Positions 3,857-38,485 of a DNA stretch of 64,000 bases are shown piece after piece. Origin of the DNA: Alphaproteobacteria bacterium (lineage in GTDB: Bacteria; Pseudomonadota; Alphaproteobacteria; Rs-D84). Below the pieces are notes generated by a model, which saw nothing but the letters and a program-made list of their open reading frames with translations, did not search any database and was not told the DNA's origin. The position numbers were made by a program, and so were the translations under genes. Numbering within the stretch: position 1 is the first letter of the stretch; each line of letters opens with the position of its first letter. The stretch lies in NCBI GenBank assembly GCA_015062495.1, contig SUUN01000001.1:97069-161068 (forward strand), read 5' to 3'.

Positions 3857-4147
3857 ATGAAAAAAGTATTGCTTTTATGTTTTACTGTCTGTATGTTTGG
3901 CGCAAACGCAGCGGATTTACCAGCTTGCAGAGGGACGTTACAATTATGGCCAAATGTCGGGTATTATGAGTCATCTTGCCCCGCGGGAACGATTGAATTG
4001 GTTGTGGCGTCTTTGCCTTGTGAATATGCAAGCAGTGCTCAGACATGCGGCATGTTCGTTAATGATAATGGCGAAACAGATGTTTATATCGGAGAGGATG
4101 CTTCTGGCGTATTCGAAATATCTGGTTTTTGTGGACTGTCGCAGTAG
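3857..4147 (+). CDS. Small Cys-rich secreted protein, hypothetical
   Basis: 96 aa, AAGGAG RBS, signal peptide MKKVLLLCFTVCMFGANA, 7 Cys. Confidence 0.5.
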   Translation: MKKVLLLCFTVCMFGANAADLPACRGTLQLWPNVGYYESSCPAGTIELVVASLPCEYASSAQTCGMFVNDNGETDVYIGEDASGVFEISGFCGLSQ

Positions 4148-21273: not shown

Positions 21274-21551
21274 TTGAATTTGTGGCAACTATGGCGTATA
21301 ATTGTTGTGTCGTCGGGTGTTCCGGTGATGGGGTGTCGAAACCCGTTCCTTTGCGTCTGAGAAAAGAGTTTGAATGCGCCGATGCTGGGCGTGTTTTATC
21401 AGATGAAAAATAACAAACTCCTGATGCCAATTGGGTCAGGAGGGTTGCGATATATATAAATAAGCACACAATTCAAAGGATTGTTTCGAACCTCCTGACC
21501 GTCAAATGATTGGCGGTTTTTTGTTTAACAAAAAATCAGGAGATAGAACAA
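21274..21551 (+). promoter_or_regulatory. Leader copy 2: promoter TTGAAT-N17-TATAAT (21274-21302) plus a structured leader homologous to 10863-11142
   Basis: Same architecture as copy 1 with compensatory substitutions: ATGGG..CCCGT, GCGCC..GGCGT+T-run, CTCCTGAT..GTCAGGAG, conserved AT-rich block, CGAACCTCCTGACC, second hairpin plus T6, SD CAGGAGAT. Confidence 0.65.
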
Positions 21552-22229
21552 ATGAAAAAAAATTTACTGTTTGTGGTTGGGGCTGTGTGCTCGGTGGTGG
21601 CGTGTCCAGCAATGGGGGCATACAACTGTTATCAGATAGCGCAATCGTCAGAATATTTATGCGACGGTGCTTTGTCACAGTATCAGATAACGGGGGTGAG
21701 GCCAAGTTTGGATATGTTGGGTGGCGGTATGACGATGCCAGGTTGTGCCAGCAGTGATTATTTTGAATGTTGGGCATATACATCTGGCAGTAATACGGTT
21801 TATGTTCCGTGGTATGACTGTGATAGTTGTATGGCTGGATATACCAGAAAGTCTACAACCGCGCAAATGGGCGGATGTGGAAATGCCACATATTATTATT
21901 GCGAAGAAAATTGTACCGGGTGCAGTAATTGTACGTCTGATACGACGTGGTCCACAACGGGTACGGACGGATATGAAAAAAAGGTCACACGCACGTGCAG
22001 TTGTAACACGTGTATGATCAGCACTTCATATCGTTGCGCCGCCGGATATTATGGCAGTTCAACAAACGGTACATCGGGGTGTACGCGGTGTCCGTCGTCG
22101 GGTGGGGTCTATGGCACAAGTGCCGCAGGCAGTACCGCGATAACATCGTGTTATATTCCGTCTGGAACGTCGATGACAGATAGTGTAGGAACGTATGAAT
22201 ATACGTCAAATTGTTATTATAGCGAATAA
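21552..22229 (+). CDS. Cys-rich secreted protein, paralog B (C-terminal ...CSCNTC...RCP...CY...GTYEYTSNCYYSE)
   Basis: Signal peptide MKKNLLFVVGAVCSVVACPAMG; about 24 Cys; C-terminal module shared with 11143 and 29339. Confidence 0.6.
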   Translation: MKKNLLFVVGAVCSVVACPAMGAYNCYQIAQSSEYLCDGALSQYQITGVRPSLDMLGGGMTMPGCASSDYFECWAYTSGSNTVYVPWYDCDSCMAGYTRKSTTAQMGGCGNATYYYCEENCTGCSNCTSDTTWSTTGTDGYEKKVTRTCSCNTCMISTSYRCAAGYYGSSTNGTSGCTRCPSSGGVYGTSAAGSTAITSCYIPSGTSMTDSVGTYEYTSNCYYSE

Positions 22230-22259: not shown

Positions 22260-23372
22260 TTAAAATGCGTATTTGATATTCATGCCACCAATCCATCCGT
22301 CGCGGGCGCCGTCGCGGCGACCAAAGTGCGCAGATATGTTAAAGTGGTTTACATATTTTTCCAGCGATATGCCATATTCGCGATAGTTGTCGGTTTCAAG
22401 TGCGTCGGCGACAATATCATTGATGTGTGTGTCGCCACCGTTGTCAAATATCATTACATATTTGGCGTTCAGTGCGCCGAACCATCCGTTTGCGATGTGC
22501 TTAATCGCGCGCAGGGTGGGGGTGACTTCGAACATGCTGAATAATGCGTCGTTCTTTAAAATATCGCCGGATGCAGATGTGTAATCTTCGCCACGAATCC
22601 ATGTGTATCCCAGGTGTATGCCGGGCTGTAATGTAAATGTGCCGTCCAACGCAAAATCGTATGTGATTTCTGTTGCAGCGCCAACCCAGAAATTTGAATG
22701 TTCGTCGGTGCCGAATATTGTGTCGGTGGTGTTATTTAATACGCCACCGTCAACTGTTGCAAACAGTCCCCAATTGCCGAATACGTTGCCGTTATAGATG
22801 CCAAAGTGACCGCCCTGGGAATCGATTTGGATTTCGTTGTTTTGTTGGTCGCCGTCGATGAATCCGGCGTACATTCCCCATTTAGATACGCCACCCGCGA
22901 ATTCAGACAGGCCGCCTGCGATGCCGAACATAAATGTGTTTATATTGGAATCTAAGTGCGCGAAATTGTCAAATACAGCGTCGTCGCCCATATGTTGCCA
23001 GTTCAACCAAATGCTGTTCAGTGCGGCATCGGCATTGTAAATGTCGCCGCCACTGCGACCGGCACTGCCGTCGTCGTTATATTCGCCGTACATCGGTGCG
23101 GTGCCGTACATTGGGGCACGGCCGTATGTGGTGGCAGGATTTTCACCGCGTTGGGCGGAAATTGATTTGGCGCGTTGTTTCTGTGCGCCCATGTTACCGC
23201 GCATAGATCCTGCAAATGAAGAAATTGCAGTTTGTGTAATTGTGTGTTGAATTGATGCGATGTTGTGTGCCGTAATTGCGTTTGCATAGGCGTGTGTGTT
23301 TGTCGCGGCGTGTGCACCAGATGTGCCCAACAATGACAATAAAGAAATTGTAAAAAGGGTTGTGTGTTTCAT
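22260..23372 (-). CDS. Outer-membrane beta-barrel protein (autotransporter-like / OMP; C-terminal ...NIKYAF)
   Basis: Signal peptide MKHTTLFTISLLSLLGTSGAHA; alternating amphipathic strands and a terminal aromatic residue typical of BAM substrates. Confidence 0.5.
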   Translation of the reverse strand: MKHTTLFTISLLSLLGTSGAHAATNTHAYANAITAHNIASIQHTITQTAISSFAGSMRGNMGAQKQRAKSISAQRGENPATTYGRAPMYGTAPMYGEYNDDGSAGRSGGDIYNADAALNSIWLNWQHMGDDAVFDNFAHLDSNINTFMFGIAGGLSEFAGGVSKWGMYAGFIDGDQQNNEIQIDSQGGHFGIYNGNVFGNWGLFATVDGGVLNNTTDTIFGTDEHSNFWVGAATEITYDFALDGTFTLQPGIHLGYTWIRGEDYTSASGDILKNDALFSMFEVTPTLRAIKHIANGWFGALNAKYVMIFDNGGDTHINDIVADALETDNYREYGISLEKYVNHFNISAHFGRRDGARDGWIGGMNIKYAF

Positions 23373-25104: not shown

Positions 25105-25563
25105 CAATGCGAATGTGTTGAATAAGTTGATAGCCACTTCGTCGATCACGTCCGGATGAATTTGCCTTTCCCGACCGATGTGCAACAATAGATTCCGATC
25201 TGGTTAGTGTTTTGGTTTGATTTGTGGTACTATAATATTGATGATGGATTTGATTGTTTTTGTGATTTGATGAAAAGTTAAAGTTTTGTGTTGAAAGTTC
25301 TGGGCAATGATTTGTTATTAGGCTTATAAATCGATTTGGTCGATTTGTTGGTTTTTGGTTTTTTTGGGATTGTAAAATGTCCGAAAAATGGTGATTTGCG
25401 CCCTATTCTGGCCCAAAAAATCGAAAAAATGGCGGATTTCTGCGGGTTTGCGGGCGTTTGTGCGCCCGGCGGGGCGGTTTTTAGGGGCGTTTTTGGTGGT
25501 GGGGTGGGTGATTCTTTGTGGCGACGGTTGATTTTGCGATGTTGCTGGGCTAGAATAATGTGT

Positions 25564-26271
25564 ATGAGATTAGATCAGGCATTAGTTCAGCGTAATTTAT
25601 ATTCCACGCGTGCACGGGCGGTGGCTGGTATTCGTGGTGGATTGGTGACGGTGAATGGCGCGCCCGCTAAAAAGCCCAGCCAGGATGTTGGGGATTCTGA
25701 TGTCTTGGTTGCGGGTGAATTGCCCTATTCCACCGGTCGTGGCAGTTTGAAATTAGCGCACGCATTAGATTATTTTAAAATCAATCCAGATGGTATGGCG
25801 TGTTTGGATGTTGGTGCCAGCACAGGCGGATTTACCGAGGTTTTATTAAAACGTGGTGCGGCACGTGTCTATGCGGTGGATGTTGGTACAGATCAGTTGA
25901 TTCCAGAACTGTGTGCGGATGCGCGTGTGGTGTCGTTAGAGAGGACAGATATTCGCACCCTGTCTGTACAATCGTTGGTTGATTTGGTGGTGGTTGATGT
26001 TTCATTTGTGTCGCTGACTAATATTGTGTCTGCGTTGGTTCCGTGGGGCGCGCGGGATATAATTGTTTTGATTAAGCCCCAGTTCGAAGTACCGCGCGAT
26101 GTTGCCGCGCGTTCCAATGGGGTTATAAAGTCCGCCCAGTGGCACGAATTTGCCAAAAATCAGGTTATTGAATGTTTTGAAAAACATGGATTTCAATTGG
26201 GTGGAATAACGGAATCGCCGGTCAAGGGCGGCAGTGGTAATACCGAATTTTTGGCACGGTTTATAAGATAA
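25564..26271 (+). CDS. tlyA: TlyA-family rRNA 2'-O-methyltransferase (haemolysin A-like)
   Basis: S4 domain (RLDQALVQRNL..RA.A...I..G.V.VNG), FtsJ-like MTase LDVGASTGGFTEVLL, DVG; start chosen at MRLDQ. Confidence 0.8.
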   Translation: MRLDQALVQRNLYSTRARAVAGIRGGLVTVNGAPAKKPSQDVGDSDVLVAGELPYSTGRGSLKLAHALDYFKINPDGMACLDVGASTGGFTEVLLKRGAARVYAVDVGTDQLIPELCADARVVSLERTDIRTLSVQSLVDLVVVDVSFVSLTNIVSALVPWGARDIIVLIKPQFEVPRDVAARSNGVIKSAQWHEFAKNQVIECFEKHGFQLGGITESPVKGGSGNTEFLARFIR

Positions 26272-26273
26272 AG

Positions 26274-26948
26274 TTATTCGTATGCTTGTGTGTCTTCGCG
26301 AACTTTAATGTTTTGAAATACTTTATCAAGAATTTTAAATTGTTCTGGTGTAGTGTCGGCATAGTGCGCAGGCATTAGAAATTTTCGTATTTTGATACGT
26401 GTTATGCCACTTGATATGTGTTGTTTGCGATAACGCCAAAGAGTGCGGATGCCATTTTCAATAATTAACAGGTCTATGTCACTATAACCAAATTTTTTGC
26501 GCAGTTTGTCTATGGCAATTTTTGCTTGTTTATTAGAAACATGCCTGTCAGTCATGTAAACTAATAATACTTTTTCGTGGGCTGCGAACACGTCGCGAAA
26601 GCGTTTAATTTTTGGTGCGTATGTTTCGACTGCGATTCTGAACCCTTCGACAAATGATAAATCTTTTGGGAAGTCGTGTGCAAATACCAATTTGGTTTTT
26701 GAATCCCAGAATCTGTAGTTGTGCCATTTTTCAATGCGTTCATATTTAATTTTCTGCAAACGTTCCGCAACTAAAAAATCTTGAAAATCATCCAGAATTA
26801 TTCGAATGCGCCCTTCGAATGTTCCGCGTTTAACCCAATCGAATGGAAATTTACGTCCGATAGGTCGTAAATTATAGTGTTTTAGGTTTTGGGTGCAGTT
26901 GCATCTATCGCCCAGTGGGATAATTTTATCGTATATAATGTTTCTCAT
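26274..26948 (-). CDS. DUF1796-family protein (putative papain-like peptidase fold)
   Basis: N-terminal IIPLGDRCNCTQNLK...PFDW pattern typical of DUF1796; 224 aa. Confidence 0.5.
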   Translation of the reverse strand: MRNIIYDKIIPLGDRCNCTQNLKHYNLRPIGRKFPFDWVKRGTFEGRIRIILDDFQDFLVAERLQKIKYERIEKWHNYRFWDSKTKLVFAHDFPKDLSFVEGFRIAVETYAPKIKRFRDVFAAHEKVLLVYMTDRHVSNKQAKIAIDKLRKKFGYSDIDLLIIENGIRTLWRYRKQHISSGITRIKIRKFLMPAHYADTTPEQFKILDKVFQNIKVREDTQAYE

Positions 26949-26955
26949 ATTAGTA

Positions 26956-27831
26956 TTATAGTTGTGTTTCTTTTATAAATCCTATTTCAGTTAAGCCATT
27001 AACTAAAACCTCGGCAAAGAATGCGGTCATCTGACAATAGAACCAGAAATCGTGTGCATGAATCTGTAAAAAACCTATTTTAAGCCATGGTTTCATGTGG
27101 CCAGTGTAATGTCGTACCACAATTTCGTTTTGTGGACAGTGTGTAATGAGATTTGATTTTACATTGAATCGCACATCCAATGGTTGATAATTTTTATCAA
27201 AGGCTTTGTTTAACACGTCTTGGTCGTTAAAGTACCTGGTTGTGGCTGTCATGCGTTCTGCGGTAATTAATTTGGGCAACATATCATTTTTGCGCCATTC
27301 GTTGCAATCTATTAGCATTACACCAGAATTAAAATATAGGTGTTCTGGTGACAGTAATGCAGCCGTGTATTGATTGTTTTTTTTGATTGGATTTTCATAT
27401 ACATTTGGGTCAGGTACCGCGCCAATAACATAGCCGTTTAAATCTTGGGCGTATAGGTCTGAGATGTCTTGCATTATAATTGTGTCGCAATCTAAATATA
27501 TAACTTTGCCCATTTCTGGTTTTAGGTCTGGAATCAGTAATCGCGCAAAACATGCGGTCGTCAGATAATTGCGCAGTTGTATATAGCCAAACTGGGTATT
27601 GGAATCTACGGGAATAAATTCAATTGAAAAATTAGAGAATTTTTCATGTAGCATTTCCATTTTTTTGCGATTCATTGGTGTCATGTCGCAATCTAGAATA
27701 TAAAATTCTATAAATGCGTTCGTATTGAACAGCAGGCTGGCCATTGATACGGTTGCGATCGGTGCGTACTTGTTGTCGCATGCATAAAATACAGGAATAT
27801 GATTTAATTTTTTTGTTTTAGTAGTGTCCAT
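26956..27831 (-). CDS. Glycosyltransferase family 8 (LPS alpha-1,3/1,2-glycosyltransferase-like)
   Basis: DNKY...A.SL.FN, YLDCDTII (DxD), YFNSGVMLIDCNEWR, H..G..KPW motifs. Confidence 0.85.
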   Translation of the reverse strand: MDTTKTKKLNHIPVFYACDNKYAPIATVSMASLLFNTNAFIEFYILDCDMTPMNRKKMEMLHEKFSNFSIEFIPVDSNTQFGYIQLRNYLTTACFARLLIPDLKPEMGKVIYLDCDTIIMQDISDLYAQDLNGYVIGAVPDPNVYENPIKKNNQYTAALLSPEHLYFNSGVMLIDCNEWRKNDMLPKLITAERMTATTRYFNDQDVLNKAFDKNYQPLDVRFNVKSNLITHCPQNEIVVRHYTGHMKPWLKIGFLQIHAHDFWFYCQMTAFFAEVLVNGLTEIGFIKETQL

Positions 27832-29318
27832 TCTGAAATGTCCTTTTTAGTTGGTTCCCATGGATGACCGTGTGTTGTCGCGCGCGAAAAACAGTATCGA
27901 CAAAACGGAATTGGGCGTGCGCAATAATTAAATACATCATGGGGGTGTAAATGTTTGTTATATATGTCCAGGCTGTCGGCGGCACATGGTCGTAGATTTG
28001 TGCCGAACTGGCGATTAAAATAGTGAATATATGCTACGATTGGACAGTGGTATAGACGGCCGCGATATAAATTTATACACCGTGTGTGTTGGCAGTTAAT
28101 AAAACTTTCGGCGCCATTTTGACGTCCTAAAATATCCAATGGTTTGTGGTATAATGTCTTTTGACAGTAACCAGTGCCGCCAAAGAAATCGAGTGCAACA
28201 TTGTATTTTTGTGCCAATTCGTTAACGGTTTCCCAATCTACGTGGATGGGATATTTGGTTGGCGATATAAGAATGCTGTAACGATGAGCGGCTTGCCAAA
28301 AGTCTGGTTTTTGTTGCGGTAACAGTATTCCGTTTGTAATAAAACGTATCAGGGATTTTGGAAACGCCAGACGTGCATATTTTATAAACGGAATTACGTC
28401 CGGGTGTAATAATGGTTCGCCGCCATACAGTTCCAATATTTTGACATTGCCACGTGTGATTTTCCGCAGGCGGAAAATATCACGTTTGAAATCGGCCAGT
28501 TTTAATTCAAAGTCCCCTGCCCGCGCTAGGCATGAAAAATGTGAACATGATTTACAGTTTAAATTACAGTGGTCGACCAGGTGAATGCTGACCTGGGGAA
28601 TGTGATCCAGGGGGACAACCTTACTCATTTGGCCCATGGCACTGTCCAGGCTAAGGCGTTGTATCATGTCGTCGATTGTGTTAATCCAACGGCGTGTTTT
28701 ACGTGATTGGGCGGCGTATTCGCGCAGAAAGTTATAAGAGTCTATTGTGTCGGCAATAAAATCATTTGGTGTGCGATATCCGCCGTGTACACGAATTATA
28801 TGGTTGCAAAAGCATGCGCGCGATGTAAAAACGCGTGGTTTATACATTATGCATTGACGCACGAACGCATCCCATCGTGTGATTTGTGTTAATTTATTTT
28901 TTATTAAAAAATCGCGTTTAAAAAACGTTGTTTCTGGGTATGAATTGGCACCATTGAAAAATACAGAATTCACCAATGGCATACCGTCAGCCTTGTATGC
29001 AAAGAATGGATATGCAAAGTTTGTTGGCGATGATGCGCGAATGTCGGAATTTGATTCCCAATGAGTTTCGGCGCAAAAGAAAATCATGTCGGTATTTTCA
29101 TCTTCGGCAATTTTGAGTAATTTTTCAATTGCATCGTTTGTATACAAATTGTCATCATTTGTGATTAATATGTATTTACCACGTGCGCGTGATAAATCCA
29201 AATGATCATGAATAATTTCAATGTTTTTATATGTTTGACGTTCCAGCCAGGCGGTTGCCTGGCTGCGGAATAATTCGTTGTCGCTGAATTGAACAAAAAT
29301 AGAGACCAATGGTGACAT
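27804..29318 (-). CDS. Fusion protein: N-terminal GT2-like glycosyltransferase domain plus C-terminal radical SAM / SPASM domain
   Basis: N-term SIFVQ...EIIHDH..... (GT-A-like fold); CNLNCKSC (Cx3Cx2C) and GGEPLL; C-terminal Cys cluster CQHTRC..C....C...FCRYC (SPASM/twitch-like). Confidence 0.7.
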   Translation of the reverse strand: MSPLVSIFVQFSDNELFRSQATAWLERQTYKNIEIIHDHLDLSRARGKYILITNDDNLYTNDAIEKLLKIAEDENTDMIFFCAETHWESNSDIRASSPTNFAYPFFAYKADGMPLVNSVFFNGANSYPETTFFKRDFLIKNKLTQITRWDAFVRQCIMYKPRVFTSRACFCNHIIRVHGGYRTPNDFIADTIDSYNFLREYAAQSRKTRRWINTIDDMIQRLSLDSAMGQMSKVVPLDHIPQVSIHLVDHCNLNCKSCSHFSCLARAGDFELKLADFKRDIFRLRKITRGNVKILELYGGEPLLHPDVIPFIKYARLAFPKSLIRFITNGILLPQQKPDFWQAAHRYSILISPTKYPIHVDWETVNELAQKYNVALDFFGGTGYCQKTLYHKPLDILGRQNGAESFINCQHTRCINLYRGRLYHCPIVAYIHYFNRQFGTNLRPCAADSLDIYNKHLHPHDVFNYCARPIPFCRYCFSRATTHGHPWEPTKKDISEWTLLKQKN

Positions 29319-29338
29319 TCTGGTTCCGTACTGTGTTA

Positions 29339-30235
29339 TTATGATACAAAACTCATAGAGCCATCTTCGAAGCAGATGCCTGTGCCTCCGCTGCCGGTGC
29401 TTGCGCTGGTGTCATAGATAAAACGTCCTGTGCTATCGTATAAACTCTCGCTGTCACTGTCAGCTTCGGATAAATGGAAATAGCACATGTCGAATCCTGA
29501 TGAATAAGTCAGGAAGCCTGATCGGTTATCGTCGCCGTCGTGTGGTGGACAGGCGATGCAACTGATGCCAGATAGCGATGTGTAGTCATTGCCGACCGTG
29601 GCGCCCTTTAATTGATAACCTGATTGGGCGCATCCGATGATACGGAAAGCATTGGTGTATGTATACCCATACAGTGAAGCCACCAATTCTTGAGTCCCTT
29701 GGCATCCTTCGCAGGCCAATGCGGGTTCGACGCACCACTGTTTGTCTGTTTCGCATTTTTGGTATTTTACACCGTTTTGTGTGTATACGGTTGAATCGCA
29801 TGTATCTGCTGGGGGGGCGCCAAAAACACTTTGTGTTATGCTGGAGCGATTATTTTCAAACCAGGTTGTCCCACAAAACCATGGTACGTTATCACTGGGG
29901 CCGGCTAGTCTGGTGGATGTAAAGTTGTTTGGATTCATATACCAGTCGCCGTTTTCATAAAATGGGCCGGTTGCGTAGAATCCATCGCCACTTGTTCGAA
30001 ATTCACAATTGTTTGTTGTGAATATTGGAATGCTGGTATAGCTGCTGACGGTTATGCGACAGTCGGCGTTTGCGTTGTCGCCATGCCCAAAATTACATCC
30101 ACTCAATTTGGTTGTCGTGTCACTGCATGTTGCAGCGGGTATAGCGTTAGCGTTATTTGTTGTGAAAAATATACTGAATGTGCCGATAAATCCGCCACAT
30201 ATACGCCACCAAATATTAAGTAATCCTTTTTGCAT
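29339..30235 (-). CDS. Cys-rich secreted protein, 298 aa, C-terminal module related to paralogs A/B
   Basis: Signal peptide ...FFTTNNANA; 20+ Cys; C-terminal CIACPP...CY....GTGICFEDGS resembles the C-termini of 11143/21552; 20 bp upstream of the rSAM fusion gene. Confidence 0.55.
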   Translation of the reverse strand: MQKGLLNIWWRICGGFIGTFSIFFTTNNANAIPAATCSDTTTKLSGCNFGHGDNANADCRITVSSYTSIPIFTTNNCEFRTSGDGFYATGPFYENGDWYMNPNNFTSTRLAGPSDNVPWFCGTTWFENNRSSITQSVFGAPPADTCDSTVYTQNGVKYQKCETDKQWCVEPALACEGCQGTQELVASLYGYTYTNAFRIIGCAQSGYQLKGATVGNDYTSLSGISCIACPPHDGDDNRSGFLTYSSGFDMCYFHLSEADSDSESLYDSTGRFIYDTSASTGSGGTGICFEDGSMSFVS

Positions 30236-30527
30236 GTTGTTTTGTCCCCTCCTCTGGGTGTTCTTCTTATTTCGTGTGTCTGTTCTAGGAAAACGGTGGT
30301 TTAGATTCGGCGGATTTTGTTGTTGACTTTTTATTGGAAAATATGGACAATATGTGGGTTAAGTATGTCGAAAACAAACCACCGTTTAGATTAGGCAATG
30401 TGTTTGTTTGTTGTTTTGTACAAAAATCAATGTGTTAGTTGCGTTTCTTTAAGGTTTTAAATTGTCTGGACTTTGTGTGTTTTTCGCGGTACTATTTGCC
30501 GGAATTTACACAAATATAGGATACAAT

Positions 30528-32927
30528 ATGGCAGAAGATATCAAGAAAATTCATGAACGCGAAGCAAAATGGCAACAGAAATGGCGCGATGCGCGCGCAT
30601 TTGTGCCACGTGATGATGGCAGTAAACCACGTTTCTATACATTGGTGGAATTTCCGTTCTTGTCCGGGGCGGGTATGCATGCCGGGCATATGATGAATTA
30701 TTCGGGTATTGATGTCTTGGCGCGTTTTCGCCGTGCGCGGGGATATGATGTACTGTTCCCAATGGGGTTTGACGCCATGGGTATCGCCGGGGAACACTAT
30801 GCAACCAAAATTGGCAAACATCCGGCGGATGTCGCGGTGGAATTAATCAAGGCGTATTCTGATATGATTGACCGTGTTGGGTGGTCTGTTGATCCGGAAA
30901 CACGCGTTTCTACGTCTGATCCAGATTATGTAAAGTGGACGCAGTGGATGTTTATTCAGTTCTGGAAGGCTGGGTTGGCGTATAAATCCGCCCTGCCGAT
31001 GAATTGGTGTCCATCATGTCGCACAACGTTCACAAATGAAGAATTAGAAGACAACAAGTGTCCGCGTTGCCATGGTGTTATCGAGAAAAAAGAAAAATTA
31101 CAGTGGAATTTGGCACTGTCAAAGTATGCGGACAAATTGCTGGATGGGCTGAACGATGTTGATTTCGAAGAACGTATTAAAAAAGATGAAATCAATCTGA
31201 TTGGCAAATCGCGCGGGGCGGATGTTGATTTTCGCGTGGGCGATGATGTTATGACTGTTTATACGACACGTGTGGATACAATCTTTGGTGTGACGTTCTG
31301 TGTTATTGCGCCGGAACATAAATTGTTGGCAAAATGGCTGGACGAAGGGAAAATTACAAATGCCGACGAAGTGCGCGCATATATCAAGGAATCAGCCGCA
31401 AAAACTGAAATTGAACGTACGGATGCAACCCGTGAAAAAACAGGTGTCGAATTAAAGGGTATTCGTGCCGTTAATCCATTTACGGGACGCGAAATTCCGG
31501 TGTTTACATCGGACTATGTGTTGGTGGACTATGCATATGGGACAATTATGGCAGTGCCGGCACATGATGGTCGCGACTGGGACTTTGCGAAAAAGTTCGG
31601 ACTGGAAATTATTCCGGTGTTGGCCGGTGGCGAGCCTGATAAAGTCTGGGAAGGTGACGGGGCGCATATTAATTCAGCTTTCTTGGATGGTATGGGCAAG
31701 GATGACGCCATTGCCGCTGCGATTAAGTATGGCACAGAACATGGGTTCGCACGTGGGACAACCAAGTATAAACTGAAAGATTGGGGATTTTCACGTCAGA
31801 TGTATTGGGGTGAACCAATACCGATGATTCATTGTGATAAATGTGGTTGGGTGCCAGTGCCAGATGACCAATTGCCAGTTATGCAACCGTACATGTCGGA
31901 TTATCGTCCCACAGACGAAGGTGAAGGCCCGTTGGCACGTGCGACGGATTGGGTAAATGTGCCCTGCCCGTGCTGTGGCGAAATGGCAAAACGCGAAACA
32001 GATACTATGCCGGGTTGGGCGGGGTCGTCGTGGTATTTCCTGCGATATCTGGACCCAAAGAACGATAAAGAGTTTTGTTCGCGCAAACAGATGGAAAACT
32101 GGATGCCGGTGACACATTATAATGGCGGTCATGAACATAATACGCGTCATTTGATTTATTCGCGTTTCTGGCATCGGGCGTTGTATGATTTGGGACTGGT
32201 TAACACACCAGAACCATATGCCAAACGTACCGCCCAGGGATTGCTGATGGGGAATGACGGTTACAAGATGTCAAAGTCCCGCGGTAATGGATTTATGGTG
32301 GCAGATTTGGTTGATAATGTCGGTGCAGATGCGGGACGTGTGGCGGTTTTGTCACTTGGACCGTGGGAAAATAATGCGGTTTGGACCGACGGTGCGTTGG
32401 CGGGGGTGCAGCGTTTCTTGAAACGTGTCGAAAATTTGGCGGATAATTTGACAGATGCACCAATGACCGCTGATCAAGAACGTTTGATGAATAAATTAAT
32501 CGCAGATGCAACGGAGCGCCTGGAAAATATGAAGTTTAATACGACTATTTCCGCGATGATGGAATATATCAATGCGTTCCCAGGGGGGACAATGCCCCGC
32601 CCTGCGTATGAAGCGTTGTTGCAGGTGCTGAATCCATTTGCACCACATTTAACCGAAGAAATGTGGGAAAAAATTGGGCATGATGAAATGTTGGTGTTCA
32701 CGCCATGGCCGACGTTTGATGCAGCAAAGTTGGTTGAAACATCAATGACGATTGTTGTGTCGGTTAATGGTAAACGTGCGGCGGACTTTGTAGTGCCGGC
32801 GGATGCGGATGAAGCAACCATTGTCGAAGCGGCACGCGCGGCGGCGGCAAGTAAACTGGCCGACGTGGAAATTATCAAGACCATTGTCGTGCCGAAAAAG
32901 TTAGTGAACTTTGTGGTAAAGAAGTAA
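30528..32927 (+). CDS. leuS: Leucyl-tRNA synthetase
   Basis: HMGH-region (HAGHMMNY), KMSKS, CP1 editing domain, C-terminal anticodon domain; start at MAEDIKK (the track N-extension is unlikely). Confidence 0.95.
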   Translation: MAEDIKKIHEREAKWQQKWRDARAFVPRDDGSKPRFYTLVEFPFLSGAGMHAGHMMNYSGIDVLARFRRARGYDVLFPMGFDAMGIAGEHYATKIGKHPADVAVELIKAYSDMIDRVGWSVDPETRVSTSDPDYVKWTQWMFIQFWKAGLAYKSALPMNWCPSCRTTFTNEELEDNKCPRCHGVIEKKEKLQWNLALSKYADKLLDGLNDVDFEERIKKDEINLIGKSRGADVDFRVGDDVMTVYTTRVDTIFGVTFCVIAPEHKLLAKWLDEGKITNADEVRAYIKESAAKTEIERTDATREKTGVELKGIRAVNPFTGREIPVFTSDYVLVDYAYGTIMAVPAHDGRDWDFAKKFGLEIIPVLAGGEPDKVWEGDGAHINSAFLDGMGKDDAIAAAIKYGTEHGFARGTTKYKLKDWGFSRQMYWGEPIPMIHCDKCGWVPVPDDQLPVMQPYMSDYRPTDEGEGPLARATDWVNVPCPCCGEMAKRETDTMPGWAGSSWYFLRYLDPKNDKEFCSRKQMENWMPVTHYNGGHEHNTRHLIYSRFWHRALYDLGLVNTPEPYAKRTAQGLLMGNDGYKMSKSRGNGFMVADLVDNVGADAGRVAVLSLGPWENNAVWTDGALAGVQRFLKRVENLADNLTDAPMTADQERLMNKLIADATERLENMKFNTTISAMMEYINAFPGGTMPRPAYEALLQVLNPFAPHLTEEMWEKIGHDEMLVFTPWPTFDAAKLVETSMTIVVSVNGKRAADFVVPADADEATIVEAARAAAASKLADVEIIKTIVVPKKLVNFVVKK

Positions 32928-32972: not shown

Positions 32973-33290
32973 TTATCGCAGGCCCTTGGCGCGACAGCAT
33001 GCGGATGCCGCAGCCTTCCAGTCTGAGAATTGTTTTGATGGGTTGCGCAAATCACGCCATGGTTGCCAACCATTGCAACGCTTTTTCGTGCCAGTGCCAC
33101 TGCATTTAGCATAGCGGCGCAAGGAACAGGTTTGATTGGAAACACGTCCGGTGTCGGTTGTGCATTTTACAACCACGTTTTGGTTTTTTGCGTCGTTTTG
33201 CCCCAGTTCCTTGGACGATATAACCTGGTACGCGTTGGCGGCGCATGCAGTTGTTAAAACGACAATTAATGACAGCAATATTTTTTTCAT
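32973..33290 (-). CDS. Small secreted Cys-rich protein, hypothetical
   Basis: 105 aa, signal peptide MKKILLSLIVVLTTACAANA, 8 Cys. Confidence 0.45.
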   Translation of the reverse strand: MKKILLSLIVVLTTACAANAYQVISSKELGQNDAKNQNVVVKCTTDTGRVSNQTCSLRRYAKCSGTGTKKRCNGWQPWRDLRNPSKQFSDWKAAASACCRAKGLR

Positions 33291-33351: not shown

Positions 33352-34419
33352 TTATTGGATAATTGGATCTGTGGTTGGATAATGACAACTGTTTTCACGT
33401 GTCAATTTTACACGGTTCATCCAGCCGGTTAAAAATACATCTTGGCCCGGTTTTGATGCGCATTTTATGAAGTATTGTTGCATGGCATCCATATAATCGT
33501 TATGCAGGTCGCCGTTATAGTTTTCCGTCGCCATAACAATTTCACTGTCTATGGTGTTGCGTTCGGGTATGCCCAGGACGCGACACAGATTGCGTATGGC
33601 TGTAACCGGGCCAGATGCCCATCCGAATGTGAATACATCACTGCGAATGTAGTCGGGTAATTTATCAATGCCGTATTGGGCATAGTATTTTCGGTGGGCG
33701 ATGTTTTCAGCGTCAGCGCGGGTGATGTTGCGGACGTCAATTTCGGGATTGTTGTTTTGTGAGATGCCATAACATGTATAGCCGCCGGAATCGTTTGGGT
33801 GGTTGCCACAGCCACCTTCGGCGCGGAATGTTGTTATCATTGTTTTTTCAAATGCCGGATCGGATTGGCGGTATTGCCCACTGGTCAGGATTTTGTTTGA
33901 AAAAACGTTGCTGCGCTGTGGCGGGGTGCATGGACCGTCGTGGATGTGTGGACTGGCAATAACTGGTTGGCCGTTTGTGGCTGTGCCAACGTTTGTGACC
34001 GGTGGTTTTGGTGCGGGGGATGCGGTTTCGGATGTCCCAGGTGTTTCAGATGGTTTCGATGGTTGGGGACGATCGCCGATTGCGATGGTGGCATCAACTG
34101 CGCCCGGTGTTTGGGGACAACGTGTTGCGTCCAATGGGTATTTTGCACAATATTGTGTGTTGGTCATGGACGCGATATCGTTTTGACGTATGGATTCTGC
34201 ATGGCGCAACATATATTTTTCTTCGGATTCGATGACGACAGGTTGATATGCGCTGCGCCCGGCAAATGGTTGATAGCCGGCGGCGGCACTGTTGCGACGT
34301 TCGATAAATGATGCGTCCATGGATGTTGTTGGAAATGATACGGGACGTAAAAAAGATTGGGCCGCGTGGGCGTTGGACATCATGAATAAAACGATAAAGA
34401 ATATTTGCGCCCTATTCAT
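33352..34419 (-). CDS. Secreted protein with C-terminal GH108-like (N-acetylmuramidase / secretion-activator family) domain
   Basis: Motif RAEGGCGNHPNDSGGYTCYGISQ matches the GH108 EGG..N.P.D.GG.T..GI signature; signal peptide MNRAQIFFIVLFMMSNAHA; start at ATG 34419 (the track 34440 start is also possible). Confidence 0.6.
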   Translation of the reverse strand: MNRAQIFFIVLFMMSNAHAAQSFLRPVSFPTTSMDASFIERRNSAAAGYQPFAGRSAYQPVVIESEEKYMLRHAESIRQNDIASMTNTQYCAKYPLDATRCPQTPGAVDATIAIGDRPQPSKPSETPGTSETASPAPKPPVTNVGTATNGQPVIASPHIHDGPCTPPQRSNVFSNKILTSGQYRQSDPAFEKTMITTFRAEGGCGNHPNDSGGYTCYGISQNNNPEIDVRNITRADAENIAHRKYYAQYGIDKLPDYIRSDVFTFGWASGPVTAIRNLCRVLGIPERNTIDSEIVMATENYNGDLHNDYMDAMQQYFIKCASKPGQDVFLTGWMNRVKLTRENSCHYPTTDPIIQ

Positions 34420-36084
34420 TTGTTGTCCATGGTTTGTCATTCATTATCAAGTAGTACAATTCTGGATTGTCCGAGCCTGGATTTCGCAACACAGGACGCA
34501 CAACAAATATGTCAATGTTGCATGGGGCGGCGGTGTCGTCTTGGTATTCGGTTAAATCCTGGTGAAATTTGGCGGCAAAGTCCATTGCCTGTAAATACGC
34601 TGCGTCATCGTCGGCCGCACTGACCGAGTCGCCCGCCCACATCAGCCACATGCCATGATTGACAACGTTTTCTTGGCCCTGTAAATCATCTGCGGATAAT
34701 AATAACAGGGGTGCAAAGTCGACACCACTGGTGAAATCGCCGGTGCTGGTTTCGGTCCAGTCGTACATGTCGCCGGCGAATTTAATCGCGCCGTACAACA
34801 GGCCGCCGGTTGCCTGGATTTTGCCCAGTGTGCCAATGTTTTTCATTGTTGAATTGAACAACCAGTCACGAACACGGGTGGATATTTTGCCACTGCGTCC
34901 CATTTTGGCGGCGCGTTTAATTAATTTGTTGCCAGATACGGCAGCCTTGCTTGCGCGTACTGTGCGCGCAATTATGTTGCCGCGCTGGGCGGTGCGGATT
35001 GCGCGCAGGCCGCGCAGACTGTGCCGATATGCGTTCAGTTCGGAAAATGTTTTGGTTGCATCGCGATATTTTTTTACATCATCCGCCGATTCCAGTGTTT
35101 TGATTGTGTCGTTTAATTTATCCAGTTCGCGGGTTTTGTCGGCGATTTTTGCAGCGTCGACAACCGTATCCAGTGCCTTGATTTCATCAGTTAATTTTGC
35201 CGCGTCGCGTGTGGCGCGTACGTATTTTACAACGTCGTCTGATTTTTCTAATGTTTTGATTGTTGTGCCCAGGCCCTTTAATGCGCGGGATGCGCGGGCG
35301 GATTTCGTCGCACCTGATATTACCAGACCACCCCCCATTGTTGCAACTGTTATAACGACATCCAGTGCCATTTCGGCATATGAAATCCATTGCAGATTTA
35401 CATCGCCCGCGACATAGTAATCGTTGGTGTCGTCGTCGATATTAACGGTGTGTTCACGCATAACTGTGTTTATGGTGGTTGCGTCGCGGGATACGGCACT
35501 GCGGTCGGTGCATGTGCCGCCATTGCCCGATGGGTATAATTTATCAATATTGTTTTTTATATAGTTCAGTGAAATTGTGTTGTTTTTGTTTGTGCCAACA
35601 AATTCATCCAATGCACCATGTTCGGTTACCATAATAGCGTACCAGGCGGGATCTGTGTTTGTCCATATTGCATCATCATCGCGTGCGCCGATGCGTGGAC
35701 TGTCCCCGCCGGACGGCAGGTCGCGCTTGTTCCCCAGCATAATGCGTTGTTTTAATATCTTGGGCTGGGTTTCATAGTTAATGACAATTTCACGTCCCCC
35801 GGGGAATGTATATTGGATGGGGGTGAATTTGATTGTTTCGTCATCTGGTACATTTGCGATTTCAGGACATGCCAATACAGTATTTAGCACATCAGGTAAT
35901 GCAAATGTTTGATAAATCCAGGTTTGAATATCGGTTTCGTGTGCGGTTTCATCGACTGTGTTGGCGGTTCGGGCAAGTGCGTCTGCAAATGCGCGTGATG
36001 CACATTCGGTGGCCGGCGCGTCATCTGCCCACGCAGGGGACAGAAGTAATGTGGTCAATATTGTAAACAATAATGATTTAATCA
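34412..36084 (-). CDS. Secreted hypothetical protein with internal basic/acidic repeats
   Basis: Signal peptide MIKSLLFTILTTLLLSPAWA; start ATG overlaps the upstream gene's stop (ATGATTAA coupling); repeated K..D.VKKY.DAT / R...A.K motifs. Confidence 0.5.
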
Positions 36085-37565: not shown

Positions 37566-38485
37566 TTTGGAAATGCCGCTATTATTCTATCTATTAACTG
37601 TTGACGTGCTGGGTCGACTGTGTCAGATCCATCAGACGAGCCGGGTGTGCCAGTGCCAGAGTCTTTTTTTTTACAACGTTCGTCGTCGGGATGTTTTTTA
37701 CAGTATTCATCCAAACTCAGATTGTTATAATCGCGTATTCGTGCCAGTTTTTCTTGGCGGCGCAGGTATGCCTCTATATTTTCAACTTCGATTTCTTTGT
37801 ATGCGCGGGCGTCTTTGAACGGTGCATAGCCGGCCGCCGCGTTTTCCATGCGTTCGGTAAATGATAAATCTGCATATGTCGTTGGAAATTCGGTTGTGCG
37901 AACCAATTTTGGTTGTTTTACACCGTTGGCCGCCTGTAAATCTTTTAATTCCTGTTTCCGGTCCAGAATTTCCATTTGCCATTCTTGTAATTTAGGGCTG
38001 AGTGGGTTTTGCATTTCAAACTTTGAACCGTCGCCCATTGTGCCCATGCCCGTTGTTGTTGGGAATGCAGCACCCGCCGATGGGGCGGCAATGGCATTTG
38101 TTTTCAAGTATTGTTCAAACGCGGTGTCAATGTATCCACCACAGGAAGATGCATAATTGCCATTTGGCATTTGGGATAACTGCAACATGATTGATGGACG
38201 AATGTCGGACAATTGCGTTGTTATGCATTTGTTGCGGTTTGCACATTCCGCCGCCACCAGGTATGATACCACATTTTGACAGTCGGACGTTTCAACAGAC
38301 GGGCCGGTTGCATAGACCGCAGTTGGAAAACGCTGATTATATGGGCCATTGGGATTCCAAAATGGGTTTGATGAATAATCCTGGACGTTTTGAATAACGC
38401 CATATTTGCTCATTACCGTGTTGGCATGGGCAAATGACGCAAAAAGCGCAGAAAATATAATAAATAAGTTGAACTTCATTCTCAT
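37562..38485 (-). CDS. Secreted hypothetical protein; shares an N-terminal-region module with the GH108 protein
   Basis: Signal peptide MRMKFNLFIIFSALFASFAHA; segment AAAGYAPF...AY....E..EAYLRR...YC.KHPDDERC parallels AAAGYQPF...AY...E..E.YMLR...YCAKYPLDATRC in the 33352 protein. Confidence 0.5.
   Translation of the reverse strand: MRMKFNLFIIFSALFASFAHANTVMSKYGVIQNVQDYSSNPFWNPNGPYNQRFPTAVYATGPSVETSDCQNVVSYLVAAECANRNKCITTQLSDIRPSIMLQLSQMPNGNYASSCGGYIDTAFEQYLKTNAIAAPSAGAAFPTTTGMGTMGDGSKFEMQNPLSPKLQEWQMEILDRKQELKDLQAANGVKQPKLVRTTEFPTTYADLSFTERMENAAAGYAPFKDARAYKEIEVENIEAYLRRQEKLARIRDYNNLSLDEYCKKHPDDERCKKKDSGTGTPGSSDGSDTVDPARQQLIDRIIAAFPK

What the first reader, a model, noticed from the sequence alone, without database searches (positions are those of the whole stretch)
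26274..30235. Operon coupling a Cys-rich secreted paralog to a GT2 / radical-SAM-SPASM fusion enzyme, a GT8 glycosyltransferase and a DUF1796 protein
Gene arrangement. On the minus strand, in order: a Cys-rich secreted protein (29339-30235); 20 bp later a 504-aa protein; then a GT8 enzyme; then DUF1796. The 504-aa protein has an N-terminal ~220 aa that looks like a GT-A glycosyltransferase. Its C-terminal ~280 aa carries the radical SAM CNLNCKSC/GGEPLL core plus a SPASM-like Cys cluster. Coupled starts and overlaps indicate an operon. The GT8 enzyme is DxD-containing and LPS-glycosyltransferase-like. Interpretation. A GT2-rSAM/SPASM fusion is unusual. SPASM radical SAM enzymes typically install thioether or C-C cross-links in Cys-rich peptides, and GT2 enzymes S/O-glycosylate bacteriocins (glycocins). 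One hypothesis is that the adjacent Cys-rich protein family is the substrate of a combined glycosylation and radical-SAM maturation pathway. Alternatively this is a glycan (LPS/capsule) modification locus and the neighbouring secreted protein is coincidental.
Basis: partly seen in the sequence, partly recalled or inferred. Interest (0 to 1): 0.8.

Follow-up and report, generated by a model that had tools for sequence, protein, structure and literature searches.

The report
Secreted protein with radical-SAM glycosylation cassette
An uncultured, small-genome gut bacterium keeps a fast-evolving secreted protein gene next to three sugar-handling enzymes, one an uncharacterised radical-SAM enzyme fused to a decayed glycosyltransferase, which suggests a new way of decorating a surface protein or glycan.

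Summary
The four minus-strand genes are real and tightly packed, with a 20-nt gap, a 28-nt overlap and a 7-nt gap. The 504-aa protein is a GT-A (GT2-like) domain fused to a radical SAM domain.

Two details of the finding are wrong:
- The C-terminal Cys cluster is not SPASM. It is a one-auxiliary-cluster, twitch-type arrangement, and its nearest solved relative is the sugar dehydrogenase SpeY.
- The GT2-like domain is degenerate. It lacks about 36-40 aa of the nucleotide-binding segment, and its DXD motif is not conserved.

The fusion-GT8-DUF1796 trio is invariant in every related locus (Rs-D84 / Ca. Enterousia-like gut Alphaproteobacteria). The neighbouring secreted protein is not coincidental:
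- Its family has only 14 representatives among 1.84 billion proteins.
- Every member whose context could be read lies directly upstream of the trio, in ten lineages with differing flanks. Both reverse look-ups confirmed this.

One subclade carries the trio alone. More distant relatives of the rSAM domain sit in polysaccharide clusters, often fused to genuine GT2 or GT8 domains.

Best reading (about 0.4): carbohydrate-type enzymes dedicated to glycosylating or modifying the co-encoded exported protein. The main rival (0.3) is a LOS/glycan modification with the protein as a glycan-dependent partner.

One unexplained result: 19 of 20 family members have an odd number of Cys in the mature protein.

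The parts
29339..30235 (-). Secreted, fast-evolving Cys-containing protein (298 aa, 16 Cys; MBE6456435.1). It is the partner or candidate substrate of the cassette.
   Evidence: ORF; no Pfam or PDB match. Orthologues lie upstream of the enzyme trio in ten lineages. The family has 14 representatives in 1.84e9 proteins. Identity.
30143..30235 (-). Sec-type signal peptide (aa 1-31, ending ANA) with an unusually conserved n-region (W9, R11).
   Evidence: Alignment A5: M1, R11 and A31 are invariant and W9 is >=90%. This is the most conserved segment of the protein: 35% mean pairwise identity against 14% for the middle. Cleavage is inferred from the AxA motif.
29342..29680 (-). Conserved C-terminal module (aa 186-298). 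It includes 'FRIIGC', a C226...C229-P loop and C251-Y.
   Evidence: 28% mean identity against 14% for the variable region. Invariant residues are C202, C226, C251, D267, G270, F272, Y274 and C288.
29414..29437 (-). Signature motif D267-S-T-G-R-F-I-Y274 (family pattern D-x-[STAG]-G-x-F-x-Y). It occurs once per family member, about 25-30 aa from the C-terminus.
   Evidence: one occurrence in each of 17 members.
28644..29318 (-). N-terminal GT-A (GT2-derived) domain of the 504-aa fusion (aa 1-~225). It is degenerate: the nucleotide-binding segment is deleted and the DXD is not conserved.
27804..28613 (-). Radical SAM domain with a twitch-like C-terminal auxiliary-cluster region (aa 236-504, plus the stop codon).
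28545..28568 (-). CX3CX2C radical-SAM cluster motif (C251-N-L-N-C255-K-S-C258).
   Evidence: Invariant in 20/20 orthologues.
27891..28094 (-). Region holding the invariant Cys C409, C414, C425, C473 and C476 (putative single auxiliary [4Fe-4S] site). It is not a SPASM motif.
   Evidence: 20/20 for each. C409, C425, C473 and C476 align with Cys of SpeY, and C414 aligns with a Ser (alignment).
26956..27831 (-). GT8 retaining glycosyltransferase (291 aa). Its start overlaps the end of the fusion gene by 28 nt.
   Evidence: Pfam Glyco_transf_8 E 3.9e-50. LgtC E 1.1e-16, WbbM and GlyE 5gvv. The 'YLDCDTI' and 'HYTGHMKPW' motifs are read directly. 55-84% identical among orthologues.
26274..26948 (-). 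DUF1796 protein (224 aa). It is a putative papain-fold Cys/His enzyme with no signal peptide.
   Evidence: Pfam PF08795 E 3.7e-10. C16, D37, H91 and E164 are invariant in 11 orthologues. It is always the last gene of the trio.
30236..30461 (.). AT-rich divergent intergenic region between the cassette and leuS. It is the probable promoter region; no credible small ORF lies in it.
   Evidence: GC 0.358; ORF listing. The promoter scan was not above chance. The promoter role is inferred.

Best explanation
This is a clade-specific four-gene operon of an uncultured, reduced-genome gut alphaproteobacterium (order Rs-D84, Ca. Enterousia-like).

Components:
- A fast-evolving Sec-exported protein with a conserved signal peptide and a conserved C-terminal module.
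- Three cytoplasmic, carbohydrate-type enzymes that are dedicated to it.

Proposed mechanism (inferred):
1. Before export, the GT8 enzyme puts an alpha-hexose on the protein, probably in or near the conserved C-terminal module.
2. The SpeY-like twitch radical-SAM domain abstracts a hydrogen from that sugar and oxidises, epimerises or dehydrates it. The domain is held on its target by a GT2-derived domain that appears to have lost canonical nucleotide-sugar catalysis and now acts as a binding module.
3. The DUF1796 Cys/His enzyme adds or removes an acyl group, or trims.
4. The product is a modified glycoprotein on the cell envelope.

Shown: gene order and coupling, domain identities, the decay of the GT2 domain, invariance of the enzyme trio, and strict adjacency and co-distribution of the secreted family.

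Inferred: that the protein is the acceptor, the order of the steps, and the chemistry.
For: - Tight coupling of the four genes.
- The trio fusion-GT8-DUF1796 is present in all 13+ related loci.
- The secreted family is restricted to 14 representatives in 1.84e9 proteins. It is found only directly upstream of the trio, 12-137 nt away, in ten lineages with at least five flank arrangements.
- L019 carries three tandem members (493, 109 and 335 aa) ahead of the enzymes, like multiple substrates.
- The closest stand-alone rSAMs (49-51% identity) also follow secreted Cys-rich ORFs, with GTs downstream in L010.
- The enzymes are carbohydrate-type. SpeY is the nearest structure. The rSAM family is fused to true GT2 and GT8 domains. 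The GT8 resembles LgtC and the glycoprotein-acting GlyE.
- None of the three enzymes has an evident signal peptide or membrane segment, and no flippase or oligosaccharyltransferase gene lies in the cassette (read by eye from the translations).
- The signal-peptide n-region and the C-terminal motif are conserved in an otherwise hypervariable protein, as expected of recognition elements.
- 19 of 20 members have an odd Cys count in the mature protein, which hints at one Cys that is not disulfide-bonded.
- The cassette is retained in genomes under 1 Mb.
Against: - There is no direct evidence of any modification.
- One subclade (P0013-P0018; loci L007/8, L014, L015) has the enzyme trio with MscS, ArgRS or another gene upstream and no family member on the contig.
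- More distant rSAM relatives sit in ordinary polysaccharide clusters, so a glycan rather than a protein acceptor is equally natural.
- The GT8 cannot be told apart from LOS enzymes.
- Synteny among related genomes is partly inheritance.
- Cys-rich secreted ORFs make up roughly 10% of genes in this window, so the outgroup adjacencies could be chance.
- The structure of the partner protein could not be modelled (pLDDT 41).
Confidence: 0.4

Rival explanations
1. Glycan-modification module with a glycan-dependent partner protein. The three enzymes modify a cell-envelope glycan (LOS core or another polysaccharide) on the cytoplasmic face. The co-encoded secreted protein is not a substrate. It is a variable surface protein whose conserved C-terminal module binds or is anchored to that modified glycan, in the way S-layer proteins depend on a specific cell-wall polymer.
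For: - GT8 is LgtC/RfaJ/WbbM-like.
- The N-domain fold is closest to polymer-decorating GT2s such as TarS, TarP and RmlT.
- The wider rSAM family lies in polysaccharide clusters and is fused to GTs.
- The trio persists without the protein in one subclade.
- A hypervariable body with a conserved C-terminal module is typical of anchored surface antigens.
- LpxA lies near the L003 cassette, so LPS is made in that lineage.
- The enzyme genes have the low GC typical of surface-glycan genes: 0.365-0.41 against 0.454 for the window.
Against: - It does not explain why the signal-peptide n-region is the best conserved part of the protein, nor the odd Cys parity.
- The adjacency is stricter than is usual for anchor/ligand pairs.
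- The GT2-like domain has lost the segment needed for canonical donor binding.
Confidence: 0.3
2. RiPP-like protein maturation in the strict sense of the first reader. The radical SAM domain acts directly on the polypeptide, for example forming a Cys-derived thioether or another cross-link or an epimerisation at the conserved C-terminal motif. Glycosylation by GT8 is a second modification, and DUF1796 acts as a processing peptidase.
For: - The partner genes lie directly upstream, as in precursor-maturase pairs, with three tandem 'precursors' in L019 that include a 109-aa mini-member.
- A 90-aa secreted 6-Cys ORF lies 3 nt upstream of the closest stand-alone rSAM in L022.
- The Cys count is odd in 19/20 mature proteins.
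- The invariant D-x-x-G-x-F-x-Y motif is flanked by invariant Cys.
- DUF1796 keeps a Cys/His pair.
- From my own knowledge, not tested here: cytoplasmic rSAM enzymes do act on exported proteins, as anSME does on sulfatases and QhpD on QhpC.
Against: - There is no SPASM domain and no RRE. NCBIfam peptide-maturase models match only the core motif and score far below their cut-offs.
- The family is fused to GT2, GT8 and methyltransferase domains in polysaccharide loci.
- The partners are 250-490 aa proteins with Sec signals and no cleavable leader.
- One subclade lacks an adjacent partner.
Confidence: 0.15
3. No functional link. The secreted gene is simply an inherited neighbour in a lineage rich in Cys-rich secreted proteins, and the trio is an ordinary glycan locus.
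For: - About 10% of plausible genes in the window are Cys-rich secreted ORFs.
- All cassette-bearing genomes belong to one clade.
- The window and L003 share the same LeuRS...TlyA site.
- One subclade lacks the gene.
Against: - The adjacency survives at least five different flank rearrangements.
- The family is never seen elsewhere in the contexts available, and 2/2 reverse look-ups hit the cassette.
- The family exists only where the cassette exists.
- Gaps are 12-49 nt in most loci.
Confidence: 0.1

Closest known systems
SpeY, twitch radical SAM dehydrogenase of spectinomycin biosynthesis (PDB 7wzv/7wzx/7x0b)
   Different: Identity is only 22-24%. SpeY is a stand-alone enzyme acting on an aminoglycoside intermediate, whereas here the domain is fused behind a GT-A domain. 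The family also has extra invariant Cys at C263 and C414 (C414 aligns with a Ser in SpeY). The genomic context is a secreted-protein/GT8/DUF1796 operon in a gut symbiont. The substrate is unknown.
GT2 GT-A glycosyltransferases that decorate polymers: CgT/GalT1 (5hea), TarS, TarP, RmlT, SpsA
   Different: About 36-40 residues that hold the first nucleotide-binding Asp ('DDGS') and the following alpha/beta unit are missing. The DXD is not conserved among orthologues. The domain evolves much faster than the rSAM half, at 30-64% against 61-85% identity. It is probably not a canonical transferase.
GT2-rSAM, GT8-rSAM and methyltransferase-rSAM fusion proteins of the same rSAM family (uncharacterised metagenomic proteins P0045, P0058, P0085, P0082, P0095)
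   Same: The rSAM domains are homologous (38-42% identity; 34% for the GT8 fusion P0082) and sit C-terminal to a carbohydrate-enzyme domain.
   Different: Those GT domains are intact (Pfam GT2 E 1e-36 to 1e-41). Where context is known (L018 for P0082; also the tandem-rSAM Butyrivibrio locus L012), the locus is a multi-GT polysaccharide cluster with no secreted Cys-rich gene.
Dedicated cytoplasmic glycosylation of exported adhesins (HMW1/HMW1C, AIDA-I/Aah, serine-rich-repeat proteins with GtfA/B plus GT8 enzymes such as GlyE). From my own knowledge.
   Same: A surface-protein gene lies next to soluble glycosyltransferases that act before export. GT8 enzymes take part in the SRRP systems. GlyE (5gvv) is among the PDB matches of the window's GT8 (E 9e-11).
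   Different: To my knowledge none of those systems contains a radical SAM enzyme, a DUF1796 protein or a pseudo-GT2 domain. Glycosylation of the protein here is not demonstrated.
Glycocins (SunA/SunS, GccF) and radical-SAM/SPASM peptide or protein maturases (sactisynthases, QhpD, anSME). From my own knowledge.
   Same: They involve Cys-rich exported polypeptides encoded next to a GT2 or an rSAM enzyme. Those enzymes modify the polypeptide in the cytoplasm before export.
   Different: The cassette has no SPASM motif, no RRE, no leader/ABC-C39 export genes and no active-looking GT2. The partners are large Sec-signal proteins.
LgtC/RfaJ-type LOS alpha-glycosyltransferases (GT8)
   Same: They are the best characterised relatives of 26956-27831 (LgtC E 1.1e-16; NCBIfam lipopolysaccharide 3-alpha-galactosyltransferase E 7.7e-19). 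The DXD and HxxGxxKPW motifs are present.
   Different: The NCBIfam score of 68 is far below the 461 cut-off, so the protein is not an equivalog. The acceptor is unknown.

Membership tests
Radical SAM superfamily (PF04055) | CX3CX2C cluster motif and a GGEP-type SAM-binding motif; Pfam score above the gathering threshold | tested here: met
   C251/C255/C258 and G299-G300-E301-P302 are invariant in 20 orthologues. Pfam score is 32.0 bits against a 29.5 cut-off.
SPASM subfamily of radical SAM enzymes | C-terminal seven-Cys motif including CX2CX5CX3C, which binds two auxiliary [4Fe-4S] clusters (definition from my own knowledge) | tested here: not met
   No SPASM Pfam hit. Only five invariant C-terminal Cys exist, spaced C-x4-C-x10-C...C-x2-C. 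SPASM-family NCBIfam models match only aa ~240-340 and score far below their cut-offs.
Twitch subfamily of radical SAM enzymes (SpeY/BtrN type) | Shortened C-terminal domain binding a single auxiliary [4Fe-4S] cluster | tested here: inconclusive
GT2 glycosyltransferases (GT-A, inverting) | GT-A fold | tested here: met
GT2 glycosyltransferases (GT-A, inverting) | Complete nucleotide-binding half, including the first conserved Asp ('DDGS' after beta2) | tested here: not met
   About 36-40 residues are absent in alignments to 5hea, 1h7l and 3bcv, to the true GT2-rSAM fusion P0058 and to the L010 GT2.
GT2 glycosyltransferases (GT-A, inverting) | Conserved DXD metal/diphosphate-binding motif | tested here: not met
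   At positions 54-57, D55 occurs in 10/20 and D56 in 9/20 orthologues. P0020 has 'NTNN' and P0010 has 'DGQT'. The window protein itself has N-D-D-N.
GT8 glycosyltransferases | Pfam GT8 match, DXD motif and the C-terminal HxxGxxKPW motif | tested here: met
   PF01501 E 3.9e-50 over profile positions 2-252 of 253. 'YLDCDTI' and 'HYTGHMKPW' are read in the translation.
DUF1796 (PF08795, putative papain-like cysteine peptidase) | Pfam match above threshold; conserved Cys/His pair | tested here: met
   40.3 bits against a 23 cut-off. C16 and H91 are invariant in 11 orthologues. Catalytic activity was not tested.
RiPP radical-SAM maturase systems (sacti-/ranthipeptide type) | Small precursor with a leader peptide, an RRE (PqqD-like) domain on the maturase, and a SPASM domain | tested here: not met
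   The partners are 109-493 aa with Sec-type signal peptides. There is no PqqD/RRE or SPASM Pfam hit. The linker at aa 184-234 is helical.
Glycocin systems (SunS-type) | Active GT2 S/O-glycosyltransferase, a small two-disulfide peptide, and ABC/C39 exporter and thiol-disulfide genes in the cluster (definition from my own knowledge) | tested here: not met
   The GT2-like domain is degenerate. No transporter, C39 or oxidoreductase gene lies in or next to the cassette; the flanks are leuS and a tlyA-like gene.
Prokaryotic viperins (pVip) | Full-length match to viperin models, including the C-terminal nucleotide-binding region | tested here: not met
   PADLOC pVip and the NCBIfam viperin model match only the cluster-binding core (aa 243-336, profile positions 2-84). 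The NCBIfam viperin model scores 38.7 bits against its 180-bit cut-off.

The most novel reading that the evidence does not exclude
A previously unknown protein-maturation system. A twitch radical-SAM enzyme is tethered to a pseudo-glycosyltransferase and works with a GT8 and a papain-fold enzyme. Together they install a radical-modified sugar, possibly S-linked or cross-linked through the one unpaired Cys, on a conserved C-terminal 'C-Y...D-x-T-G-x-F-x-Y...C' module of Sec-exported, hypervariable surface proteins of reduced-genome gut symbionts. The conserved signal-peptide n-region (W9-x-R11) would serve as a recognition element. Other Cys-rich secreted proteins of the genome that carry the same short motif would be further substrates, which would explain the lineages where the trio stands alone.
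Probability: 0.25. Interest if true: 0.8.

Novelty: new variant of a known kind. Interest (0 to 1): 0.6.

Why it matters
- I know of no bacterial protein-glycosylation or surface-glycan decoration system that uses a radical SAM enzyme tied to a specific partner protein. I found none in the paper library either.
- The rSAM family itself has more than 1,400 homologues in the database. It is often fused to GT2, GT8 or methyltransferase domains in polysaccharide loci, and it has no characterised member. The Rs-D84 cassette offers a compact four-gene entry point with an obvious candidate substrate for working out its chemistry.
- The host lineage has genomes under 1 Mb and probably depends on other cells. 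A retained, fast-evolving surface protein with dedicated modification enzymes is therefore a good candidate for a host- or partner-interaction determinant.
- The GT2-derived domain may be an example of a glycosyltransferase fold recycled as a targeting module.

Tried and rejected
- **SPASM assignment:** rejected.
- **Viperin or defence system:** only core-motif matches.
- **Homology of the 298-aa protein to other Cys-rich window ORFs:** none by blastp, by the full-length HMM or by the C-module HMM. Only a post-hoc regex motif is shared.
- **Structure of the secreted protein:** AF2 with 14 sequences gave pLDDT 41, which is unusable, so no fold search was made. Profile against PDB gave nothing.
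- **DUF1796:** no PDB relative by sequence. Database homologues are all orthologues except one, P0137 (35% identity), which sits beside a GT2 and a histidine phosphatase. No phage match.
- **Literature:** nothing useful for 7WZV, DUF1796, GT-rSAM fusions or HygY. Only the organism background was found.
- **Promoter and terminator scans:** at chance level.
- **Small precursor ORF in the upstream intergenic region:** none credible.
- **Plasmid search with the rSAM domain:** one distant Streptomyces hit only.
- **L009:** the rSAM-only gene that lacks both the N-domain and the partner gene looks like a rearrangement breakpoint in a strain of the L003 lineage. I did not use it as evidence.
- The afdb50 library was unavailable.

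Full report
**1. What is in the window**

Four minus-strand ORFs are present exactly as described: 29339-30235 (298 aa), 27804-29318 (504 aa), 26956-27831 (291 aa) and 26274-26948 (224 aa).
- They are separated by a 20-nt gap, a 28-nt overlap and a 7-nt gap.
- They lie between a divergent leuS (30462-32927) and a convergent tlyA-like S4+FtsJ gene (25336-26271).
- Promoter and terminator scans are at chance level, and the upstream intergenic region holds no credible small ORF.
- The packing, and the same overlaps in orthologous loci, argue for one transcription unit.
- The window's proteins are MBE6456435.1 ('hypothetical protein') and MBE6456434.1 ('4Fe-4S cluster-binding domain-containing protein') of an alphaproteobacterial MAG.
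- Related loci come from Ca. Enterousia, 'Alphaproteobacteria bacterium' and 'Rickettsiales bacterium' gut MAGs. This is the order Rs-D84, whose members have genomes under about 1 Mb and lack a TCA cycle and respiratory chains (PMC12306168).

**2. The 504-aa protein**

Radical SAM half:
- Pfam gives Radical_SAM at aa 248-335, just above threshold.
- In 20 full-length orthologues (47-99% identity), CNLNCKSC and GGEPLL are invariant.
- The best PDB match covers aa 245-485: 7wzv, E 2.4e-14. This entry is 'a Twitch Radical SAM Dehydrogenase SpeY'.
- The invariant C-terminal Cys are C409, C414, C425, C473 and C476, and C263 is also invariant. Four of them align with Cys of SpeY.
- There is no CX2CX5CX3C motif and no SPASM hit. 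The 'SPASM-like' label is therefore wrong, and a single-auxiliary-cluster (twitch-type) arrangement is the better description.
- RiPP-maturase and viperin models match only the cluster-binding core and score far below their cut-offs.

N-terminal half:
- Three independent alignments show that about 36-40 residues are missing. These residues include the 'DDGS' nucleotide-binding segment. The alignments are to PDB GT2s, to a genuine GT2-rSAM fusion P0058 and to a canonical GT2 of an outgroup operon.
- The DXD-equivalent positions are not conserved: D55 in 10/20, D56 in 9/20, and one orthologue has NTNN.
- Other acidic or basic residues are invariant: D41, D77, E88, D92, R94 and H173.
- The domain evolves much faster than the rSAM half, at 30-64% against 61-85% identity to the window.
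- I read it as a GT2-derived domain that has lost canonical donor chemistry but is still under selection, most simply as a binding or targeting module. This is inference.

**3. The other two enzymes**

- 26956-27831 is a clear GT8 (E 3.9e-50) with the DXD and HxxGxxKPW motifs. It is nearest to LgtC, a Bacteroides GT8, WbbM and the glycoprotein-acting GlyE.
- 26274-26948 is DUF1796. C16, D37, H91 and E164 are invariant in orthologues, which is compatible with a papain-fold Cys/His enzyme.
- By eye, none of the three enzymes has a signal peptide or membrane segment.

**4. The secreted protein**

- It has a Sec-type signal peptide ending ANA, 16 Cys, and no Pfam or PDB match.
- It is not detectably homologous to other Cys-rich ORFs of the window. 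A short C-terminal motif, C[YFW]...D-x-x-G-x-[FY]-x-[FY]...C, is shared with 11143-11670 and 21510-22229. That is 3 hits against 0.01 expected in shuffles, but the pattern was chosen after I had seen the sequences.
- An exhaustive profile search found only 14 representatives among 1.84 billion proteins.
- Aligned members share the signal peptide (M1, W9, R11, A31) and a C-terminal module: 'FRIIGC', a Cys loop ending C-P, C-Y, and D-x-[STAG]-G-x-F-x-Y once per protein.
- The middle of the protein is hypervariable in sequence and length. Mean pairwise identity is 35% for the signal peptide, 14% for the middle and 28% for the C-module.
- AF2 could not model it (pLDDT 41).

**5. Is the neighbour coincidental? 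No.**

- The trio fusion-GT8-DUF1796 is present in every related locus.
- A family member lies directly upstream, on the same strand, mostly 12-49 nt away. This holds in the window, L001, L002, L003/4, L005/6, L013, L016, L019, L020 and L021.
- The flanks differ among these loci:
  - LeuRS...TlyA in the window and L003.
  - SSB and a resolvase downstream in L001.
  - Fic upstream and a GT2 downstream in L002.
  - BOF and OmpA in L005.
  - Bax1-I and Lgt downstream in L020.
- Two look-ups that started from family members found by sequence alone (P0144, P0147) both landed on the cassette.
- L019 has three tandem members (493 aa with an internal duplication, a 109-aa mini-member and a 335-aa member) with near-identical signal peptides.
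- The two closest stand-alone rSAM relatives with readable context also follow secreted Cys-rich ORFs:
  - L010/L011 (51% identity): a 334-aa, 19-Cys protein overlapping the rSAM start, whose N-terminus 'MKQRMIGFFSRL' has an aromatic residue at position 9 and R at position 11, as in the family. A DXD protein and a canonical GT2 lie downstream.
  - L022 (49% identity): a 90-aa, 6-Cys secreted ORF 3 nt upstream.
  - Neither outgroup protein is significantly similar to the family by HMM. Because about 10% of genes here are Cys-rich secreted ORFs, these two cases are suggestive only.

**6. Evidence pointing the other way**

- One subclade (P0013-P0018; L007/8, L014, L015) has the trio with MscS, ArgRS or another gene upstream and no family member on the contig.
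- More distant rSAM relatives (33-42% identity) lie in ordinary polysaccharide clusters:
  - Butyrivibrio: six GT2s plus UDP-galactopyranose mutase.
  - A GT8-rSAM fusion among GT2s, a methyltransferase and an ATP-grasp.
  - A GT2/DegT context.
- The family is repeatedly fused to intact GT2, GT8 or methyltransferase domains.
- The enzyme genes have low GC (0.365-0.41 against 0.454 ± 0.033 for the window), while the partner gene does not (0.465).

**7. Interpretation**

- The enzymology is carbohydrate-type, not RiPP-type. The partnership with the secreted protein is nevertheless real.
- The reading that joins both facts is a dedicated, cytoplasmic (pre-export) glycosylation or modification of the co-encoded protein. 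The rSAM domain would remodel the sugar. Confidence is about 0.4.
- The main rival (0.3) is modification of LOS or another glycan that the protein's conserved C-module depends on. It explains the trio-only subclade more easily. It does not explain why the signal peptide is the best conserved part of the protein.
- A strict RiPP-like cross-linking model keeps some weight (0.15) because of the tandem 'precursors', the mini-member and the Cys parity.
- Pure coincidence gets 0.1.

**8. An unexplained regularity**

- After the conserved AxA site, 16 of 17 aligned family members have an odd number of Cys (9, 11, 13, 15 or 17). L013 is the exception with 18.
- L021 (13), the L019 493-aa protein (25, counted from M44) and the 109-aa member (7) are also odd. 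That makes 19 of 20.
- Parity is kept although the count varies, so Cys seem to be gained and lost in pairs around one unpaired Cys.
- That Cys could be free, intermolecular or modified. The sequences are related, so a binomial P value would overstate the case. The prediction is directly testable by thiol mapping.

**9. Novelty**

- I found no description of this cassette, of the GT-rSAM fusions or of the secreted family in the paper library.
- All the parts belong to known superfamilies. The combination is new, namely a twitch rSAM behind a decayed GT2 domain, with GT8 and DUF1796, tied to a private secreted protein family. It is therefore a new variant of a known kind rather than a new category.

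Noticed in passing
window 11143-11670 (+), 21510-22229 (+), 3857-4147 (+), 3448-3846 (+), 32973-33290 (-): These are further small Cys-rich ORFs with signal peptides. Three end with a motif like that of the cassette-linked protein: '...CYVPADKGYEDSDGTGTFEFTSKCYYSN', '...CYIPSGTSMTDSVGTYEYTSNCYYSE' and '...DASGVFEISGFC...'. By my count, the mature forms of 11143, 21510 and 3857 also have odd Cys numbers. They could be further clients of the same machinery or share a structural C-terminal module.
   Followed up: partly
window 51831-52670 (+), with 50677-51831 (+) and 52672-53484 (+): A second, unrelated radical SAM ORF (279 aa, 'NWCNLKCAHC', Pfam E 7.6e-7) directly follows a LysM-domain protein and precedes an unannotated 270-aa ORF.
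   Followed up: no
window 1-64000: GC skew is strongly and uniformly positive (0.02-0.37 in every 2-kb bin, with cumulative skew rising monotonically). The whole window therefore lies on one replichore, with unusually strong strand asymmetry.
   Followed up: no
window 26274-29318: The three enzyme genes have lower GC (DUF1796 0.369, GT8 0.365, fusion 0.411) than the window mean of 0.454 (sd 0.033). The partner gene (0.465) and the flanking housekeeping genes (0.48) do not.
   Followed up: partly
window 33352-38485 (-) and 22260-23372 (-): This is a run of large secreted or unknown proteins: a GH108 lysozyme-like protein at 33352-34440, and 563-, 495- and 307-aa ORFs with no Pfam match. An autotransporter beta-domain protein lies at 22260-23372. 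The envelope and secretome content around the locus looks rich.
   Followed up: no
L003 12510-16689; L009 10936-11989: Microviridae-like genes (Phage_F capsid, REP_ORF2-G2P replication protein, Phage_ORF5) lie just beyond the tlyA-like gene next to the cassette in one strain lineage. They are absent at the same site in L004. This looks like an integrated or co-assembled microvirus.
   Followed up: no
L019 91-3084: Three tandem members of the secreted family (493 aa with an internal duplication of the module, 109 aa, 335 aa) share an almost identical signal peptide. This suggests recent duplication or gene conversion and possible antigenic diversification.
   Followed up: partly
L009 6830-7834: In a strain of the L003 lineage the fusion gene is cut down to its rSAM half (277 aa). 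The partner gene and leuS are replaced by a 742-aa membrane protein on the other strand. This may be a rearrangement breakpoint or an assembly join.
   Followed up: partly
L010 258-5647 and L022 752-4495: Outgroup operons. L010 (Rickettsiales MAG) has a secreted HExxH protein, a 334-aa 19-Cys secreted protein, a stand-alone rSAM, a DXD protein and a GT2. L022 has an 868-aa Cys-rich Ephrin_rec_like protein, a 90-aa secreted 6-Cys ORF and a stand-alone rSAM. The pairing of this rSAM branch with secreted Cys-rich proteins may be older than the fusion.
   Followed up: partly
P0022, P0023, P0026 (proteins): Relatives of 685-698 aa carry two Radical_SAM stretches in tandem. This is another architecture of the same uncharacterised rSAM family. 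The 667-aa Butyrivibrio relative P0025 was not scanned; it lies in a polysaccharide cluster (L012).
   Followed up: no
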